Both the position numbers and the translations under genes were made by a program. From NCBI GenBank assembly GCA_964016885.1, contig OZ024740.1, positions 163,122,001 through 163,186,000 of the forward strand: 64,000 nt of DNA, in the 5' to 3' direction. Each line of letters opens with the position of its first letter. Within the stretch, counting starts at the first letter, position 1. Source of the DNA: Eledone cirrhosa (taxonomy: Eukaryota). Below, piece after piece: positions 1-48,208 of this stretch. The notes under the pieces are model-generated. The model had not been told where the DNA came from, did no database searches, and was given only the letters and a program-made list of their open reading frames with translations.

Positions 1-3000
1 CGTAAATAGAGTGAACGACAGAATAATTAAAATAAGACTTGTCCTCAATAGAACTACGGTGACAGTAATATCTGCGTACGCACCCCAATCCGGACTGCCC
101 GGCACTATAAAAGACAGATTCTATGAGACACTGTTGCTAACTACCTCCCAAATATCTGACAGTGACTATATAATTATTGCAGGCGACCTAAATGGTCACG
201 TTGGACAACATTGTGACGGCTATGACGAAATCCATGGAGGCTATGGGTTTGGTACTAGAAATGAGGAAGGCTCCAGAATTCTGGAATACTGTGATGCAAA
301 TAACCTAACTATCTGTAACACTAACTTCAAAAAACGTGACAATCACCTGATTACCTATAGATCCGGGGAACACACAAGCCAGGTAGATTATATCCTTACC
401 AGAAGACGTGACAGAGTGTCTGTTGTAAACACTAAATCCCTCCCCCATGAAGAATGCACCTCCCAACATAGACTGATAATTAGCGACCTCATAGTCAGGA
501 CGAGACGCACCCGACAGCAGAAGAGGACTATCCTCAGGAGGAAAATATGGAAACTAAAGGACCCCACAGCCAGAAATAAATTTCAAAGCATATTACTTGA
601 TGCTTTCGACAGTAAGGAAGAGCATCTAGAATCGGACAATATAGAGGGACAGTGGAAATTCCTGAAAGCAAACCTGCTGTTGGCGACAGACGAAGTCTGT
701 GGCTGGAGCAGGCCTGTAGGCAGGAGGAGAGTAACATGGTGGTGGAACAATAGGGTGGAGGGGTCAATTAAGGCCAAAAAGCAGGCTTGGAAAGTATGGC
801 GGGATGGGGGAAGTAGAGTAGACTATCAAGTGGCCAGGAGGGAAGCTAGGAGAGAAGTGTACTTAGCAAGAAGGGAAGCTGAGGAAAGAAAGTTCAAGCA
901 TGTTCTACAACGCGATGACCAAAAACGTGAGGTGTTCAGGATTGCCAGGCAATGCGTCAAGGAAAACCGTGATATTGTCGGGGAGAAGTGTGTACTTAAC
1001 GATGATGGCATACTTGCCATCACCGACACTGATAAGAAGGTAGCTTGGAAGTGTCACTATGAAAGGCTACTAAATGAGGAGAATAAATGGGAGAAAGACA
1101 GTCTCCCCCTTATCGACCCGATAGAGGGACCAGCAGTGTTAGTCGAGGGGAGTATAATAAGTAAGGCAATCAAGGATATGAAGACTGGTAAGGCGGCTGG
1201 GCCTTCGGAAATAGTTGCTGAGATGCTGAAGGCATCTGGCACGGTGGGACACACCATGGTCACCCGCATAGTTAACCAAGTCGTACAGAATGGGGTTGTT
1301 CCGAAGGACTGGCATAGCAGCATCATCGTTAACTGTTATAAGGGTAAAGGAGACGCCCTAGATAGGAGTAACTATAGAGGCATTAAATTAATCGACCAGG
1401 TCATGAAGGTCACGGAAAAAGTAATAGCGCAACTAATCAGAGAGAGAATTGATCTAGATGAAATGCAGTTCGGGTTTGTGTCAGGCAAAAGCACCACAGA
1501 CGCTCTTTTCATAGTACGACAACTACAGGAGAAGCACCTAGCTAAAGGTAAACCCCTCTACTTAGCTTTTGTCGACCTGGAGAAAGCCTTCGACAGAGTC
1601 CCCCGCTCCATTATCTGGTGGGCTCTTAGAAAACTAGGCGTTGACGAATGGCTTGTGAGGGCTATACAAGCCATGTATAAAGAAACAGTCAGCAAGGTTA
1701 GAATTAACAACGAATATAGTGAAGAGTTTAGCGTAAAAGTTGGCGTCCATCAGGGCTCTGTTCTCAGCCCCCTACTATTTATTATTGCCCTTCAGGCTAT
1801 AACAGAGGAGTTCAAGACAGGCTGCCCATGGGAACTCCTATACGCAGACGACCTGACACTCATAGCGGAATCAATGGCCGAGCTAGAGAAGAAATTCCAA
1901 ACATGGAAGCACGGCCTAGAGTCAAAAGGACTTAAAATTAACCTGGCTAAGACCAAAGTTCTAGTTTGTAGGAAAGAAAACAAGGCGGCGGTCCCTTCTG
2001 GGAAATGGTCGTGCTCGGTATGTAGGAAAGGCGTAGGTAGAAACTCCATCTTATGTCCTAAATGCAAAGTATGGGTGCATAAAAGATGTAGTGGGATCAC
2101 AGGTAAGCTAACTAAGAACATAGACTTTACATGTGGCCGGTGTTCTGGTGCAATAAGTAGCAGCAAGTGCCCACAAAATACTAGCTCTTTCAATTGCGCA
2201 GAGGGTTCTATAGAAATAGTGGACAGCTTCCGTTACCTGGGCGATAAAATCAGCAGTGGGGGAGGGTGCTCTGAAAGCACTGTAGCTAGAGTCAGAACTG
2301 GTTGGAAAAAGTTCAGAGAGCTTATACCACTATTAGCTGCTAAAGGGTTCTCCCTAAAAATGAAAGGCAGGTTGTACGATGCCTGCATACGAACAGCAAT
2401 GTTGCATGGTAGTGAGACCTGGGCATTGTGTGCAGAGGATATACGCAGACTAGAGAGGAACGAAGCTTGCATGCTCCGCTGGATGTGTAACAGTAATATA
2501 CGTGAACGGCAAAGCATAAACGAACTAAGGAAAAAATTAGAGATAAGAGGGATCAGATGTTGTTTACTCGAGAGAAGGCTGCGTTGGTATGGACACGTGA
2601 TGCGCATGAAAGTCGATAGCTGTATTACAAAGTGCAGGGCAATAAAGATAGACGGTAGCCACGGAATAGGCAGACCTAGAAAAACATGGGATGAGCTGAT
2701 AAACTCCGACCTCACACACTTACACCTCTCCAAGACAATGTCACTGGACCGTGACCTTTGGCGGTACTCAGTAACAGAGAAGACCCGCCTTGCCAGTAGG
2801 CATCTCTAACAAAATACACCCCTCCCGCGCCACCCCCACCCCATCCACACCACCCCGTTCTATGTAAAGTCATGTTGGTGCCGCGCCATCCAGGCCGAAA
2901 CAAATGAGATCGTGTAGGTGTCACGACAAAAAAACACACAGTCCACGCTGTAATGTGGCCGTGTAGGCAACACGGTAAAAACCTCCCAGACCCACACTGT

Positions 3001-3162
3001 AAATGTGGTTGGTGTTAGGAAGGGCATCCAACTGTAGAAAACCTGCCAGACAGTCCTATGCGAGCAAGACAATCACTCTTGCCTCAAGTGGGACTACCCC
3101 CGTCCAAACCCATGCAAGCGTGGAACACGGACGTTAAACGTTGATGATGATGATGATGATGA
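1..3162 (+). mobile_element. RTE LINE copy 1, including ~340-bp 3' UTR and (GAT)n tail
   Basis: ORF followed by a 3' UTR ending ...ggacgttaaacgtt(gat)n that runs directly into (TA)n; the same UTR occurs at 3595, 32777 and 47800. Confidence 0.93.
11..2809 (+). CDS. RTE-clade non-LTR retrotransposon ORF (C-terminal part of APE endonuclease, reverse transcriptase, PHD-like Cys/His finger, C-terminal RTE motif); probably continues 5' of the window
   Basis: Uninterrupted 932-aa frame: SAYAPQ, IAGDLNGHVG, SQVDYIL, SQHRL (APE); NYRGIKL, QFGF, AFVDLEKAFDRV, GVHQGSVLSPLLF, LYADD, FRYLG (RT); GSETW, RRLRWYGHVMRM, GRPRKTW (RTE C-terminus). Confidence 0.95.
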   Translation: MNDRIIKIRLVLNRTTVTVISAYAPQSGLPGTIKDRFYETLLLTTSQISDSDYIIIAGDLNGHVGQHCDGYDEIHGGYGFGTRNEEGSRILEYCDANNLTICNTNFKKRDNHLITYRSGEHTSQVDYILTRRRDRVSVVNTKSLPHEECTSQHRLIISDLIVRTRRTRQQKRTILRRKIWKLKDPTARNKFQSILLDAFDSKEEHLESDNIEGQWKFLKANLLLATDEVCGWSRPVGRRRVTWWWNNRVEGSIKAKKQAWKVWRDGGSRVDYQVARREARREVYLARREAEERKFKHVLQRDDQKREVFRIARQCVKENRDIVGEKCVLNDDGILAITDTDKKVAWKCHYERLLNEENKWEKDSLPLIDPIEGPAVLVEGSIISKAIKDMKTGKAAGPSEIVAEMLKASGTVGHTMVTRIVNQVVQNGVVPKDWHSSIIVNCYKGKGDALDRSNYRGIKLIDQVMKVTEKVIAQLIRERIDLDEMQFGFVSGKSTTDALFIVRQLQEKHLAKGKPLYLAFVDLEKAFDRVPRSIIWWALRKLGVDEWLVRAIQAMYKETVSKVRINNEYSEEFSVKVGVHQGSVLSPLLFIIALQAITEEFKTGCPWELLYADDLTLIAESMAELEKKFQTWKHGLESKGLKINLAKTKVLVCRKENKAAVPSGKWSCSVCRKGVGRNSILCPKCKVWVHKRCSGITGKLTKNIDFTCGRCSGAISSSKCPQNTSSFNCAEGSIEIVDSFRYLGDKISSGGGCSESTVARVRTGWKKFRELIPLLAAKGFSLKMKGRLYDACIRTAMLHGSETWALCAEDIRRLERNEACMLRWMCNSNIRERQSINELRKKLEIRGIRCCLLERRLRWYGHVMRMKVDSCITKCRAIKIDGSHGIGRPRKTWDELINSDLTHLHLSKTMSLDRDLWRYSVTEKTRLASRHL

Positions 3163-3594
<432 letters not shown>

Positions 3595-4462
3595 CATCAT
3601 CATCAACGTTTAACGTCCGTGTTCCACGCTTGCATGGGTTTGGACGGGGGTTTTCCCCCTTGAGGCAAGAGTGATTGTCTTGCTCGCATAGGACTGTCTG
3701 GCAGGTTTTCTACAGTTGGATGCCCTTCCTAACACCAACCAAATTTACAGTGTGGGTCTGGGAGGTTTTTACCGTGTTGCCTACACGGCCACATTACAGC
3801 GTGGACTGTGTGTTTTTTTGTCGTGACACCTACACGATCTCATTTGTTTCGGCCTGGATGGTGTGGCACCAACATAACTTTACATAGAAGGGGGCGGTGT
3901 GGATGGGGTGTATTTTGTTAGAGATGCCTACTGACTGTAGTAGGTTTTACTTCGTATTTAGGTAAGGCGGGTCTTCTCTATTACTGAGTACCGCCAAAGG
4001 TCTCGGTCCAGTGACATTGTCTTGGTGAGGTGTAAGTGTGTTCGGTCGGAGTTTATCAGCTCGTCCCAGGTTTTTCTGGGTCTGCCTATTCCGTGGCTAC
4101 CGTCTATCTTTGTTATACAGCTATCGTCCTTCATGCGCATCACGTGACCATACCAACGTAGCCTTCTCTCTAGTAAACAACATCTGATCCCTCTTATTTC
4201 TAATTTTTTCCTTAGTTCGTTTATGCTTTGTCGTTCACGTATATTACTATTACACATCCAGCGGAGCATGCAAGCTTCGTTTTTCTCTAGTCTGTGTATA
4301 TCCTCTGCACACAATGCCCAGGTCTCACTGCCATGCAACATTGCTGTTCGTATGCAGGCATCGTACAACCTGCCTTTCATTTTTAGGGAGAACCCTTTAG
4401 CGGCTAATAGTGGTATAAGCTCTCTGAACTTTTTCCACCCAGTTCTGACTCTAGCTACTGTA
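3595..4462 (-). mobile_element. 5'-truncated RTE copy, tail-to-tail with copy 1
   Basis: Reverse-complement 3' UTR from 3595, then ORF end [15 protein letters not shown]...DRDLWRYSVIEKTRLT, near-identical to copy 1. Confidence 0.93.
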
Positions 4463-4887
4463 CGTATATATATATACATATATATATATACATATATTGT
4501 TATACTTTGGGAGGGTCATGTTGCCAATAAGAAACACACGCACCAGTTGCTTTCACTTCAATTTATTATATATTTATAAATTCATAAATTTACAAATCTA
4601 CAAACCTATAAATTATAAATTTCTGGTTGACCAACCAGAAATTTATAATTTATAGGTTTATAGGTTTGTAGATTTGTAAATTTATGAATTTATAAATATA
4701 TAATAAATTGAAGTGAAAGCAACTGGTGCGTGTGTTTCTTATTGGCAACATGATCCTCCCAAAGTATAACAATATATGTATATATATATATGTATATATA
4801 TATACGTACAGTAGCTAGAGTCAGAACTGGGTGGAAAAAGTTCAGAGAGCTTATACCACTATTAGCCGCTAAAGGGTTCTCCCTAAA
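4382..4887. repeat. ~500-bp near-perfect palindrome (RTE fragment + TA tract + pLTR-like stub, mirrored)
   Basis: Centre ttctggttg-ac-caaccagaa (4621-4640); the arms differ by one substitution and an 8-bp duplication in the right arm. Confidence 0.93.
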
Positions 4888-4946
4888 TATCGGTTTCAAC
4901 ACACGATTTCAGATAAAGAATATTGCTAAACAAATTCAGAAACGAA

Positions 4947-6035
<1,089 letters not shown>

Positions 6036-6186
6036 GTACGTTATTCCGGGTTGAATCGGAGGTAACCACAGTAAGTAAGGTACTCAATACATAGCAGAGT
6101 ATAACAGTTTTAATATAGATGAGATTCTACAGGACTAGAACTGTTTCATTAGTTCTAGTCCTGTAGAATCTCATCTATATTAAAAC

Positions 6187-6187
<1 letters not shown>
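6036..6187 (-). mobile_element. Penelope-like pseudo-LTR 3' stub with 37-bp inverted arm
   Basis: Perfect inverted arms 6106-6142 / 6151-6187 around gtttcatt. Minus strand reads aatGAAACagttctagtcctgtagaa...tactct...atgtattgagta...actgtggt, matching 54123-54243. Confidence 0.65.
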
Positions 6188-8611
<2,424 letters not shown>

Positions 8612-9170
8612 ATAAAATATTAAACAAATAATGAATAAACAATTCCTTATATTAAACAAAAAAAGTTCATTATTTAACGATCGTTTCTAGGATATATATG
8701 TGTTAGAGTTGGCATGCATATTCAACAGATCTATGTACAAAATTATACAAAATTATACAAACTATCAAGATTAAATATACATACCAACACATATATACGC
8801 CGTCTTCAGAAATAATATACATATATATATATACATTATTTCTGAAGACGGCGTATATATGTGTTGGTATGTATATTTAATCTTGATAGTTTGTATAATT
8901 TTGTATAATTTTGTACATAGATCTGTTGAATATGCATGCCAACTCTAACACATATATATCCTAGAAACGATCGTTAAATAATGAACTTTTTTTGTTTAAT
9001 ATAAGGAATTGTTTATTCATTATTTGTTTAATATTTTATCTTGACTCTGTATACCGTTTATCTTTCACCGAAAGTGATTTTTCATTACATCTCTTCTTTC
9101 CATGATATCCGGAATACATTGAGTTCTTCATACGGATTGGACACTACCGTAAACTCTTGGTAGATTTATC
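8612..9170 (+). mobile_element. Penelope-like pLTR remnant: 205-bp perfect inverted repeat plus 130-bp unique tail, embedded in (TA)n
   Basis: Arms 8612-8816 and 8835-9039 are reverse complements with an 18-bp TA-like spacer; each arm holds an HHR core. Confidence 0.8.
8834..8983 (+). ncRNA. Type I hammerhead ribozyme-like motif with greatly extended stem II (mirror copy on the minus strand in 8668-8816)
   Basis: Stem I CATTATTT/AAATAATG (8 bp), core CTGAAGA (8842), ~115-nt stem II hairpin, GAAAC (8964), palindromic stem III ACGATCGT, predicted cleavage after GUU at 8975. Confidence 0.75.
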
Positions 9171-32776: not shown

Positions 32777-33947
32777 TCATCATCATCGTTTAACGTCCAT
32801 CTTCCACACTAGCATGGGTCTGGACGGGAATTGTCCCACTAGAGGCAAGATTGGTTGTCTTGCTCGGGACTGTCTGGCGGGTTTTCTACGGCTGGATGCC
32901 CTTCCTAACACCAAACACATTTACAGTGTGGACTGGGAGGTTTTTACCGTGTTACTTGCATGGCCACATTACAGTGTGGGCTATGTTTTTTTGTTGTGAT
33001 ACCTACACGACCTCATTTATTTAGGACTGGATGTTGTGGTACCAACATAGCTTTACATCGAAAGAGGTGGTGTAGATGGTGGTGGGGTAGGGGTAGTAGG
33101 ACGGGGGTGTATTTTGGTTAGGAGGTGCCTACTGACTGTAGGTTTCGCTTTGTACTTAGGCAAGGCGGGTCTTCTGTATTACTGTGTAGCGCCAAAGATC
33201 TCGGTCCAGTGACATTGTCTTGGAGAGGTGTAAGTGTGTGAGGTCGGAATTTATCAAGTCATCCCAGGTTTTTTTTCTGGGTCTGCCTACTCCGTAGCTA
33301 CCGTCTATTTTGATCGCCCTGCATTTTTTTATACAGCTGTCGTCTTTCATGCGCATCACGTGACCATACCAACGTAGTCTTCTCTCGAGTAAACAGCATC
33401 TGATCCCTCTTATTCCTAATTTCTCATTTAGTTCACTTATGCTTTGTCGTTCGCGTATATTACTATTACACATCTAACGGAGCATGCTAGCTTCGTTCCT
33501 CTCCAGTCTGCGTTGATGCTCTGCACGCAAGGCCCATGTCTCACTGACATGTAACATCACTGTTCATATGCAGGCATCATACAGCCTGCCTTTCATTTTT
33601 AGAGAGAAACCCTTAGCGGCTAATAGTGGTATAAGCTCTCTGAACTTTTTCCATTCCGTTCTGACTCTAGCTACAGTACTTTCGGAGAGAACCCTCCACC
33701 ACTGCTGATTTTGTCACCCAGGTAATGGAAGGTATCCACTATTTCTATAGAACCATCTGGGCAATGGAATGAGCTAGTATTCTGTGGGCATTTGCTGCTA
33801 CTTATTGCACCAGAGCACCGGCCACATATAAAATCTATATTCTTAGTTAGCTTACCTGTGATCCCACCACATCTTTTATGCACCCATACTTTGCATTTGG
33901 GACATAAAATGGAGTTTCTGCCTACTCCTTTCCTACACACTGAGCAT
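32777..33947 (-). mobile_element. 5'-truncated, frameshifted RTE copy starting at the PHD finger
   Basis: ORFs 33671-33940 and 33156-33473 match the copy 1 protein; 3' UTR and (GAT)n tail present. Confidence 0.93.
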
Positions 33948-45433: not shown

Positions 45434-48208
45434 TATATCCTTACCAGAAGACGTGACAGAGTGTCTGTTGTAAACACTAAATCCCTCCCCCATGAAGAAT
45501 GCACCTCCCAACATAGACTGATAATTAGCCACCTCATAGTCAGGACGAGATGTACTCGACAGCAGAAGGCAACTATCCCCAGGAGAAAAATATGGAAGCT
45601 AAAGGACCCCACAGCCAGAAATAAATTTAAAAGCATATTACTTGATGCTTTCGACAGTAAGGAAGAGCATTTAGAGTCGTACAATATAGAGGAACAGTGG
45701 GAATTCCTGAAAGCAAACCTGTTGATGGCGGCAGACGAAGTCTGTGGCTGGAGCAGGCCTATAGGCAGGAGGAGAGTAACATGGTGGTGGAACAGTAAGG
45801 TGGAGGAGTCAATTAAGGCCAAAAAGCAGGCTTGGAAAGTATGGCGGGATGGGGGAAGTAGAGAAGACTATCAAGTGGCCAGGAGGGAAGCTAGGAGACA
45901 AGTGTACTTCGCAAGAAGGGAAGCAGAGGAAAGAAAGTTCAAGCATGTTCTACAACGCGAGGGCCAAAAACGTGAGGTGTTCAGGATTGCTAGGCAATGT
46001 GTCAAGGAAAACTGTGATATTGTCGGGGAGAAGTGTGTCCTTAATGATGATGGTGTACTTGCCATCACTGACGCTGATAAGAAGGTATCTTGGAAGTGTC
46101 ACTACGAAAGGCTACTAAATGAGGAGAATAAATGGGAGAAAGACAGTCTCCCCCACATCGACCCAATAGAGGGACCAGCAGTGTTAGTCGAAGGTAGTAT
46201 AATAAGGCAATCAAAGATATGAAGGCGGCTGGGCCTTCGGAAATAGTTGCTGAAATGCTGAAAGCTTCTGGAACGGTGGGACACACCATGGTCACCCGGA
46301 TAGTGAACCAAGTCATACAGAATGGGGTTGTTCCGAAGGACTGGCGTAACAACATCATCATTAACTGCTACAAGGGTAAAGGAGATGCCCTATATAGGAG
46401 TAACTATAGAGGCATTAAATTAATCGACTAGGTCATGAAGGTCACAGAAAAAGTAATAGCGCAACTAATCAGAGAGAGAATTGATCTAGATGAAATGCAG
46501 TTCGGGTTTGTGTCAGGTAAAAGTACCTTTTTATTGTACGACAACTACAGGAGAAGTACCTAGCTAAAAGTAAACCACTATACTTAGCTTTTGTTGACTT
46601 GGAGAAAGCCTTCGACAGAGTCCCTGTTCCATTATCTGGTGGGCTCTTAGAAAACTAGGTGTTGATGAATGGCTTGTGAGAGCTATACAAGCCATGTATA
46701 AAGAAACAGTCAGCAAGGTTAGAATTAACAACGAATATAGTGAAGAGTTTAGCGTAAAAGTTGGTGTTCATCAGGGCTCCGTTCTTAGCCCCCTACTATT
46801 TATTATTGCCCTTCAGGCTATAACAGTGGAGTTCAAGACCGGCTGCCCATGGGAACTCCTATACGCAGCTGAATCAATGGCCGAACTAGAGAAGAAATTC
46901 CAAACATGGAAGCATGGCCTAGAAGCAAAAGGCCTTAAAATTAAGCTGTCTAAGACTAAAGTTCTAGTTTGTAGGAAGGAAAATAGGGCGCCGGTCCCAT
47001 CCGGAAAATGGCCATGCTCAGTGTGTAGGAAAGGAGTAGGTAGAAACTTCATTTTATGTCCCAAATGCAAAGTATGGGTGCATAAAAGATGTAGTGGGAT
47101 CACAGATAAGCTAACTAAGAACATAGATTTTATATGTGGCCGGTGCTCTTGTGCAATAAGTAGCAGCAAGTGCCCACAGAATACTAGCTCATTCCATTGC
47201 ACAGATGGTTCTATAGAAATAGTGGACAGCTTCCGTTACCTGGGTGACAAAATCAGCAGTGGTGGAGGGTGCTCTGAAAGTACAGTAGCTACAGTCAGAA
47301 CTGGATGGAAAAAGTTCAGAGAGCTTATACCACTATTAGCCGCTAAAGGGTTCTCCCTAAAAATGAAAGGCAGGCTGTATGATGCCTGCATACGAACAGC
47401 AATGTTGCATGGCAGTGAGACCTGGGCATTGTGTGCAGAGGATATACGCAGACTGGAGAGGAACGAAGCTTGCATACTCCGCTGGATGTGTAATAGTAAT
47501 ATACGTGAACAGCAAAGCATAAACGAACTAAGGGAAAAATTAGAAATAAGAGGGATCAGATGTTTACTCGAGAGAAGACTACGTTGGTATGGTCACGTGA
47601 TGCGCATGAAAGACGACAGCTGTATAAAAAAGTGCAGGGCAATAAAAATAGACGGTAGCCACGGAGTAGGCAGACCCAGAAAAACCTGGGACAACTTGAT
47701 AAATTCCGACCTCACACACTTACACCTCTCCAAGACAATGTCACTAGACCGAGATCTTTGGCGCTACACAGTAATAGAGAAGACCTGCCTTACCTAAGTA
47801 CAAAGTGAAACCTACTACAGTCAGTAGGCACCTCCAACAAAATACACCCCCGTCCCACTACCCCCACCCCATCCACACCACCCCTTTCAATGTAAAGTTA
47901 TGTTGGTACCACAACATCCAGCCCGAAACAAATGAGGTTGTGTAGGTGTAACGACAAAAAAACACACAGTCCACGCTGTAATGTGGCGCTGTAGGTAACA
48001 CGGTAAAAACCTCCCAGTTCCACACTATAAATGTGGTTGGTGTTAGGAAGGGTATCCAACCGTAGAAAACCCGCCAGGCACTCCTCTGCAAGCAATGACA
48101 ACCACTCTTGCCTCAAGTGGGAAAACTCCCATCCAAACCCATGCAAGCATGGAATATGGACGTTAAACGATGATGATGATGATGATGATTTAAACGATGA
48201 TGATGATT
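45434..48208 (+). mobile_element. RTE LINE copy 2, 5'-truncated and inactivated
   Basis: Colinear with copy 1 from YILTRRRD onward; frameshifts near 46205 and 46525, stop at 46429-46431, YADD reduced to YA; 3' UTR and duplicated (GAT)n tail. Confidence 0.95.

What the first reader, a model, noticed from the sequence alone, without database searches (positions are those of the whole stretch)
4382..4887. Fold-back that copied its own insertion site (inverted target duplication)
Seen: the palindrome is centred on tggttg-ac-caacca immediately before GAAA, and the right arm mirrors the 130-bp pLTR-like stub, then the 34-bp TA tract and then 81 bp of the neighbouring RTE copy, stopping abruptly at 4887; 60 bp of unrelated sequence (4888-4947) follows before (TA)n resumes. 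Inference: second-strand synthesis primed from the hairpin ran through the junction into the target DNA and then switched template. This would be a direct record of the integration mechanism, and it dates the event after the RTE insertion.
Basis: partly seen in the sequence, partly recalled or inferred. Interest (0 to 1): 0.72.

Follow-up and report, generated by a model that had tools for sequence, protein, structure and literature searches.

The report
Retrotransposon fold-back that copied its flank
A 506-base near-perfect palindrome sits where a very young Penelope-like retrotransposon entered a (TA)n tract, and its second arm also holds an inverted copy of 115 bases of the neighbouring DNA, which is likely a scar of the new DNA strand folding back on itself during insertion.

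Summary
The palindrome is in the assembly at the stated coordinates (4382-4629 / 4630-4887; one mismatch, one 8-base extra repeat). Its centre is unique in the 3.0-Gb genome.

The "130-bp stub" belongs to a very young, high-copy Penelope-like element (PLE) with a reverse transcriptase, a C-terminal GIY-YIG nuclease and a (TA)n target.

The "60 bp of unrelated sequence" (4888-4951) is not unrelated. It is the element's own 61-nt "tail", which directly follows the arm sequence at 7,920 other places.

Head-to-head pairs (a tail-less antisense arm plus a tail-bearing sense arm) are routine here: about 100 of the 220 non-canonical tail junctions examined. That architecture is already published for PLEs.

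The window is unusual in one respect. It is the only one of the 220 with an inverted copy of non-element flank, (TA)17 plus 81 nt of the adjacent 5'-truncated RTE, lying between the sense arm and the tail.

Best reading (about 0.5): the target-primed antisense cDNA snapped back, copied itself, ran 115 nt into the target, then joined the tail cDNA at a 2-nt microhomology. Later template-switch repair (about 0.3) and an assembly artefact (under 0.1) are not excluded. The public-read checks were inconclusive.

The parts
3598..4462 (-). 5'-truncated non-LTR (RTE-like) retrotransposon copy. Its last 81 nt (4382-4462) form the outer part of the left arm.
Evidence: Open frame 3958-4515 on the minus strand with a non-LTR C-terminal region. 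Three other copies in the window (83-91% identical) continue beyond the point equivalent to 4462, so this copy is truncated there.
4463..4496 (.). 34-nt (TA)n tract with CA interruptions: the left remnant of the target microsatellite.
   Evidence: Sequence. The same TA/CA pattern continues in the long microsatellite right of 4951.
4497..4629 (-). Antisense, tail-less, 5'-truncated arm of the Penelope-like element (unit positions 350 down to 215).
   Evidence: 100% identical over 133 nt to 9 other genomic copies and 99% to 30 more, among the 40 of 637 candidates that were scored. Mapped to the 411-nt unit. The arm starts at unit 348-352 in 94 of 100 head-to-head insertions.
4630..4772 (+). Sense arm of the element (unit 213-350). 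It mirrors the left arm and carries two private changes (T4754; an extra ATAGGTTT within 4652-4667).
   Evidence: The 8-nt duplication is unique in the genome. T4754 on this 85-nt haplotype occurs once in the genome, although the same base change in a 32-nt context occurs in 166 copies.
4773..4806 (.). Inverted copy of the 34-nt TA tract (4463-4496).
   Evidence: Identical in the arm alignment.
4807..4887 (+). Inverted copy of the RTE piece 4382-4462 (target DNA).
   Evidence: Positions 4810-4887 match 4459-4382 at 78 of 78, against 97.4% for the copies at 47284-47361 and 2282-2358. Homology with the left flank stops at 4382/4887.
4888..4951 (+). The element's 61-nt 'tail' (unit 351-411), the stretch between its two reverse-transcription start sites. 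It is joined to the flank copy at a 2-nt AA microhomology (4886-4887).
   Evidence: 97% identical to unit 346-411. The tail start follows CAA of the arm at 7,920 genomic places. In the full-length copy L262 it encodes residues near the N-terminus of the ORF.
4952..6090 (.). Long TA/CA microsatellite: the right part of the target.

Best explanation
The palindrome is a head-to-head insertion of a young Penelope-like retrotransposon in a (TA)n tract, and its second arm was likely made when the target-primed antisense cDNA folded back and copied itself and then 115 nt of the attached target DNA. Shown: the element family, its two insertion end points, the arm anatomy, and that the flank copy derives from the adjacent DNA. 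Inferred pathway: (1) The element's nuclease cut both strands of a (TA)n tract 34 nt from a truncated RTE. (2) The left DNA end primed reverse transcription at the internal start site (CAATAT|CG, unit 350) and made the antisense arm down to unit 215. That point is the 3' shoulder of a conserved RNA stem-loop. (3) The right DNA end primed at the downstream start site (AAATAT|CG, unit 411) and made only the 61-nt tail. (4) The 3' end of the left cDNA snapped back, copied the cDNA (the sense arm) and, finding no overlap with the short tail cDNA, went on through the TA tract and 81 nt of RTE. (5) It was then joined to the tail cDNA at an AA microhomology. The structure has no function. It is a scar.
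For: The family is a PLE. [quoted passage not shown] It has a partial upstream pLTR, an adjacent inverted copy, and the ATG inside the arm sequence.

There are two insertion end points. 15 of 30 loci end at unit 411 with the tail and 15 at unit 350 without it. Both sites read AATATCG in the RNA.

Head-to-head pairs are routine: 77 asymmetric and 21 symmetric of 220 non-canonical tail junctions. The antisense arm is tail-less in 94 of 100. In about 30 of 78 asymmetric pairs the sense arm is little more than the tail (start at unit 343-347).

The window's right arm contains target DNA in inverted order, exactly between unit 350 and unit 351. It is 78/78 identical to the adjacent RTE. The template of the sense arm was therefore the strand that carries flank plus antisense arm.

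The left arm equals the family master, while both differences lie in the right arm and are private.

The turning point lies at an RNA stem-loop (-13.2 kcal/mol, z -2.4).

Published support. A PLE protein cleaves and extends both strands and starts at two internal RNA sites, with the tail between them (PMC11167929, main text read). Inverted 5'-truncated copies and one-sided tails are typical of PLEs (PMC8557442, passages). Self-priming was proposed from palindromes at inverted junctions (PMC3846280, passages).
Against: There is one case only: 1 of 220 non-canonical junctions, beside 7,920 canonical ones.

No read-level confirmation and no empty or intermediate allele were obtained.

The sequence cannot time the fold-back. 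The same product could arise later.

The centre is not perfectly symmetric: the right arm is 2 nt longer, inside an (AACC)n run. I cannot derive that from a simple snap-back.

Copying 115 nt of duplex flank needs strand displacement or a resected flank, which is assumed.

T4754 matches a variant seen in 166 other copies, so a second RNA source is not fully excluded.

Non-element zero-spacer palindromes are as frequent in control windows near these loci as next to the tail (5 and 2 against 5 of 220). Palindrome-forming processes unrelated to this junction therefore exist in this genome or assembly.
Confidence: 0.5

Rival explanations
1. Two steps. An ordinary PLE head-to-head insertion formed first, either a symmetric fold-back or an antisense arm joined to the tail. 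Later, a break or a stalled fork in or beside the right arm was repaired by template switching on the left arm (quasipalindrome-type or synthesis-dependent repair). That synthesis overran the end of homology into (TA)17 and the RTE, and was closed at the AA microhomology.
For: 21-22 symmetric fold-backs without a flank copy exist in the same family, so the supposed precursor is common. Palindromes are known to provoke such switches (established knowledge, recalled). The product is identical to that of the integration model. Non-element palindromes elsewhere show that fold-back events occur away from tail junctions.
Against: It needs a second rare event exactly at the junction between unit 350 and the tail. 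The left arm is still 100% identical to the family master and the 115-nt flank copy is 100% identical to its source, so little time has passed since insertion.
Confidence: 0.3
2. Assembly or sequencing artefact. The true locus is RTE-(TA)17-antisense arm-tail, and the 258 nt at 4630-4887 were added by a chimeric fold-back read or by a polymerase template switch.
For: No public contig bridging 4629/4630 could be laid in 4 runs. PLE inverted structures are known to trouble assemblies (PMC8557442, passage). Removing 4630-4887 leaves a structure seen at many other loci.
Against: The arms differ by a private 8-nt duplication and one substitution. The outer end of the extra piece meets the tail at the element's own start site with a microhomology, as biological junctions do. 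The runs hold only 0.47-0.58 of the sampled words, so a missing centre word is expected by coverage alone.
Confidence: 0.08
3. Two separately primed cDNAs on two copies of the same left DNA end (sister chromatids after replication) were fused head to head. A short fragment of the second copy (81 nt RTE + TA tract + cDNA) was trapped before joining to the right end.
For: A model of this kind is proposed for L1 foldback junctions (PMC11702581, passages). T4754 is a variant present in 166 other copies, which a second RNA template could explain.
Against: Both arms stop within 2 nt of the same element position, which two independent cDNAs would not do. T4754 on this haplotype and the 8-nt duplication are unique in the genome. 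It also needs an extra break 115 nt into the sister flank.
Confidence: 0.07

Closest known systems
Canonical insertion architecture of endonuclease-containing Penelope-like elements: pLTR, an adjacent inverted 5'-truncated copy, and a one-sided 30-40 bp tail (Craig et al. 2021, PMC8557442; Arkhipova et al. 2013, PMC3846280; Frangieh et al. 2024, PMC11167929)
   Same: RT plus C-terminal GIY-YIG ORF. The ORF starts inside the pLTR. There is a partial tandem pLTR and an inverted copy head to head. The tail is at one end only and lies between two start sites in the first codons of the ORF. The target is AT-rich/(TA)n.
   Different: The tail is 61 nt rather than 30-40. Both start sites share AATAT, which can pair with the (TA)n target, whereas in the Anolis element the start site is not homologous to the cut DNA. 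No Rfam hammerhead was found. In the window the inverted arm includes 115 nt of target DNA. None of the passages I read describes that, and two full-text searches turned up no such report.
L1 twin priming and L1-associated hairpin/foldback and inverted target duplications (PMC11702581, passages read)
   Same: The second DNA end primes internally by microhomology. cDNA self-annealing gives a hairpin. Junctions are closed by microhomology. Inverted duplications of target DNA are reported as rare by-products.
   Different: The enzyme class differs (APE-type nuclease, poly(A) priming). L1 inversions do not normally give fully overlapping mirror arms, and L1 foldbacks are described as chromosome-scale junctions in cultured or cancer cells rather than as a small fixed germline palindrome.
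Quasipalindrome / template-switch mutation at inverted repeats (recalled, no call)
   Same: One arm of an inverted repeat templates new sequence in the other, which can extend the palindrome outwards.
   Different: Usually a few bases to tens of bases. It is not tied to a retrotransposon junction.

Membership tests
Penelope-like element, endonuclease-containing, C-terminal GIY-YIG | Single ORF with a reverse transcriptase followed by a C-terminal GIY-YIG nuclease | tested here: met
   L262 has a 1280-aa open frame. RVT_1 scores E 3.8e-4, 20.7 bits (below Pfam's cut-off of 29.6). GIY-YIG scores 22.7 bits (cut-off 22.6) in the last 180 residues. The whole-protein scan at E<=0.001 listed nothing. 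A CX4CX2C motif lies before the GIY-YIG domain.
Penelope-like element, endonuclease-containing, C-terminal GIY-YIG | pLTRs from partial tandem insertion, with the ORF start inside the pLTR | tested here: met
   In L262, unit 200-410 lies upstream of the ORF and unit 1-411 downstream. The first ATG is at unit 326.
Penelope-like element, endonuclease-containing, C-terminal GIY-YIG | An inverted 5'-truncated copy adjacent at the 5' end | tested here: met
   98 of 220 junction loci, or 100 with a looser cut. L262 shows it too. There are many close -/+ pairs among the 150 scored nuclease hits.
Penelope-like element, endonuclease-containing, C-terminal GIY-YIG | A short tail present at one end only, between two RT start sites | tested here: met
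   The tail is 61 nt. The antisense arm lacks it in 94 of 100 pairs whose sense arm has it. 15 of 30 loci end with it and 15 without.
Penelope-like element, endonuclease-containing, C-terminal GIY-YIG | [quoted passage not shown] | tested here: not met
   No Rfam family reached the gathering score in the window plus 5 loci. No hammerhead appeared at E<=10 on L024 1350-1900. By eye the unit has CTGAAGAG, a 6-bp stem and GAAA, but that resemblance to the hammerhead core is recalled, not scored.
Penelope-like element, endonuclease-containing, C-terminal GIY-YIG | RT groups with PLE/telomerase RTs in a tree | not tested
   No tree was built, so the clade (Neptune-like, Hydra and so on) is left open.
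L1-type twin-priming inversion | The inverted and direct segments come from adjacent, essentially non-overlapping parts of one RNA | tested here: not met
   In the window both arms cover unit 213/215-350 completely. Many other loci of the family do fit this feature, with the antisense arm from 350 and the sense arm from 343-347.
Foldback-type DNA transposon or MITE | The same inverted-repeat element is present in several copies with its own ends | tested here: not met
   The centre 28-mer occurs once in the genome. The arms are made of a PLE piece plus locus-specific flank.

The most novel reading that the evidence does not exclude
The window preserves an overshoot product showing how Penelope-like elements build their inverted repeats. 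The sense arm is copied from the antisense cDNA while that cDNA is already attached to the chromosome (snap-back after target priming), not from an antisense transcript before integration. The one-sided tail is the abortive cDNA of the second DNA end, made between the two start sites.
Probability: 0.45. Interest if true: 0.65.

Novelty: new variant of a known kind. Interest (0 to 1): 0.5.

Why it matters
How Penelope-like elements form their inverted pLTRs and one-sided tails is still an open question in the papers read here. [quoted passage not shown] Arkhipova 2013 proposed self-priming, possibly on an antisense template.

An arm that runs on into the target says which strand served as its template: the one already joined to the chromosome. 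Together with the family-wide rule found here (antisense arm tail-less, sense arm often tail only), this gives a concrete order of steps that can be tested. The existing in vitro PLE system could look for snap-back products containing target sequence. If the event turns out to be later repair or an artefact, what remains is an ordinary PLE insertion.

Tried and rejected
Read support. One search for runs and two layings of Logan contigs gave no contig bridging the centre. The runs hold about half of the sampled words and a filter drops contigs, so this gives no verdict either way.

Hammerhead ribozyme. Rfam searches at gathering score and at E<=10 were negative.

A SINE with a transcribed (UA)n tail. 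I dropped this after L262 showed that the RNA continues past unit 411 into the ORF.

A fixed 5' end at unit 1. This was an artefact of using L024 as the query with low-complexity masking. Copies such as L056, L079 and L027 continue upstream.

A shared RTE 5' end across copies. This was an artefact of where my query ended. Other copies run on beyond that point.

Second examples of flank copying. L056 and L118 turned out to be internal ORF sequence of the element. L189 has a perfect palindrome of non-element DNA (162-nt arms) 62 nt from a minimal insertion, and L216 has an 87% inverted repeat. These cannot be tied to the insertion, because control windows show as many such palindromes.

Earlier notes of this scan. 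Nothing was on record near the place.

A count of the unmutated 85-nt haplotype, meant as a control, was not obtained. The comparison therefore rests (10 of 40 scored copies are 100% identical over 133 nt).

Full report
**Observation**

The window shows a 506-nt palindrome at 4382-4887.
- The left arm 4382-4629 and the right arm 4630-4887 are mirror images.
- They differ by one mismatch (G4515 against T4754) and an extra 8-nt unit ATAGGTTT in the right arm.
- The centre reads CTGGTTG-AC-CAACCAG.
- As a single DNA strand the stretch folds at -278 kcal/mol against -40 +/- 4 for shuffles (z -55.6).
- The 28-mer across the centre is unique in the genome.
- The window is G000:C1:163122001-163186000 in a genome of 2,995,841,428 bases.

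**What the parts are**

The 133-nt core (4497-4629) has 43 listed matches in its own genome, from 637 candidates of which 40 were scored. Ten are 100% identical, including the window's own, and 30 are 99% identical.

I aligned 30 loci and defined a 411-nt unit from the natural copy L024. On that unit:
- The left arm is unit 350 to 215 in antisense.
- The right arm is unit 213 to 350 in sense.

In 15 of the 30 loci this 61-nt piece directly follows unit 350. In the other 15, (TA)n or another simple repeat follows unit 350 instead. Genome-wide, the start of the 61-nt piece is preceded by the canonical CAA at 7,920 places.

**The family is a Penelope-like element (PLE)**

- L056 led from the unit into coding sequence with a GIY-YIG motif.
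- A search with that 171-aa piece gave 31,511 first-look candidates. The 150 that were scored are 94-100% identical, and many form close minus/plus pairs.
- L262 holds a 1280-aa open frame. [quoted passage not shown] The whole-protein scan at E<=0.001 listed nothing.
- In L262 the ORF is preceded by unit 200-410 and by an inverted unit 350-159. It is followed by a 3' region ending in unit 1-411 and (TA)n.
- The first ATG lies at unit 326. The arm and the 61-nt piece therefore encode the first residues of the ORF, and the RNA continues beyond unit 411.
- Both points where insertions end, unit 350 and unit 411, read AATAT|CG in the RNA.
- No hammerhead was found by Rfam.

**Fit with the literature**

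- Frangieh et al. 2024 (PMC11167929, main text read) show that a PLE protein cleaves and extends both DNA strands. It starts reverse transcription at two internal sites in the first ~115 nt of the ORF, and the "tail" of genomic copies is the stretch between those sites.
- Craig et al. 2021 (PMC8557442, passages) describe the usual inverted 5'-truncated copy next to the upstream pLTR, the one-sided 30-40 bp tail, and a (TA)n bias in one clade.
- Arkhipova et al. 2013 (PMC3846280, passages) note palindromes at inverted junctions and propose self-priming, possibly on an antisense template.

The 61-nt piece is thus this family's tail.

**Census**

I collected every place where the exact first 25 nt of the tail are preceded by anything other than CAA. 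That gave 93 + 48 + 79 = 220 places. All 220 were fetched and mapped to the unit. Counts:

| Class | Loci |
|---|---|
| Asymmetric head-to-head pairs | 77 |
| Symmetric head-to-head pairs | 21 |
| Sense copies reaching unit 1 | 46 |
| Sense copies reaching unit 1, with a distant antisense copy | 13 |
| 5'-truncated sense copies without an adjacent antisense arm | 24 |
| 5'-truncated sense copies with a distant antisense copy | 9 |
| Tail only | 18 |
| Tail only with a distant antisense copy (the window is filed here) | 7 |
| Tail alignment too short to class | 5 |

Further findings, which used a slightly looser cut:
- The antisense arm starts at unit 348-352 in 94 of 100 pairs, and at unit 405-411 in 2.
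- In the asymmetric pairs the sense arm often starts at unit 343-347, so it is little more than the tail.
- Centres of the symmetric pairs cluster at unit 61-81 (12 of 22). The rest lie at 230-257 and 299-316, and one lies at 345-347.

**Is the flank copy unique?**

For all 220 loci I asked whether the 400 nt upstream of the tail contain an inverted copy of upstream sequence that is neither the element nor a TA repeat.
- Only the window has non-element flank copied next to the tail.
- L056 and L118 are the element's own ORF.
- L189 has a perfect palindrome of other DNA 62 nt from a minimal insertion, and L216 has an 87% inverted repeat.
- Control windows 600-1500 nt away hold as many such palindromes: 5 and 2 against 5 of 220. 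I therefore do not count L189 or L216.

The right arm's RTE piece is 78/78 identical to the adjacent copy, against 97.4% to the two next-best copies in the window. The adjacent copy is truly 5'-truncated at 4462, because the other copies continue past that point. The RTE therefore came first.

**Differences between the arms**

- The left arm equals the family master.
- The 8-nt duplication is unique in the genome.
- T4754 in a 32-nt context occurs in 166 copies, but on the window's 85-nt haplotype it occurs only once.
- The tail carries a variant shared with 35 other copies (36 matches including the window's own).

**Mechanism**

Shown: the right arm was templated by a strand that carries flank, TA tract and antisense arm in one piece. 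The extra 115 nt sit exactly between the two start sites.

Inferred: both ends of a cut in (TA)n primed on one RNA. The left end used the upstream site and the right end the downstream site. That would explain why one arm lacks the tail and why the other is often tail only. The left cDNA stopped at the 3' shoulder of an RNA stem-loop (-13.2 kcal/mol, z -2.4). It snapped back, copied itself, overshot 115 nt into the target, and was joined to the tail cDNA at AA.

In ordinary symmetric pairs the snap-back strand would anneal to a tail cDNA that reaches a few bases past unit 350, giving a seamless junction.

**What is not settled**

- The timing of the fold-back is open. A later template switch on an existing palindrome gives the same product.
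- The 2-nt asymmetry at the centre is unexplained.
- Read support is missing. No bridging contig was laid in runs that hold 0.47-0.58 of the sampled words.
- For L1, hairpin foldbacks and inverted target duplications are described (PMC11702581, passages). For PLEs I found no report of an arm that includes target DNA, either in the passages read or in two full-text searches. Subscription papers such as the early Penelope work were not searchable.
- Earlier notes of this scan held nothing near the place.

**Verdict**

This is a rare variant of a known PLE insertion architecture, of moderate interest as a natural clue to how PLE inverted repeats form.

Noticed in passing
window 2279-3149 and 3598-4462: Two RTE-like copies (90.9% identical) lie tail to tail around a ~450-nt TA/CA microsatellite (about 3150-3597). 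Two more copies sit at 32778-33678 and 47281-48178.
   Followed up: partly
window 4952-8650: Several kilobases of TA/CA microsatellite with a few short interruptions. It is the preferred target type of the PLE family.
   Followed up: no
L262 (G000:C1:301390000-301395500, minus strand): A copy of the PLE with an uninterrupted 1280-aa frame. The family has at least 31,511 first-look hits to its nuclease piece, and the 150 that were scored are 94-100% identical. This suggests very recent, massive activity.
   Followed up: partly
L024 and other full units, unit positions about 125-165: By eye the unit has CTGAAGAG, a 6-bp stem with a 5-nt loop, and GAAA, which resembles a hammerhead core. Rfam does not score it.
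   Followed up: partly
L186 (-1494..-1160), L200 (-1341..-1100), L189 (-399..-76), coordinates relative to the tail start: Zero-spacer palindromes of non-element DNA with 120-170-nt arms at 97.5-98.8% identity occur near PLE loci, about once per 22 kb of the 264 kb scanned. Their origin is unknown: another fold-back process, other element families, or assembly.
   Followed up: no
unit positions 61-81 (for example L042, L058, L104, L141, L248): 12 of 22 symmetric fold-backs turn at unit 61-81, and several 5'-truncated sense copies start near unit 70-82. This may mark a preferred RNA 5' end.
   Followed up: no
L244 (G000:C28:48282634-48284310): Two tails in tandem, separated by about 48 nt of (TA)n.
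   Followed up: no
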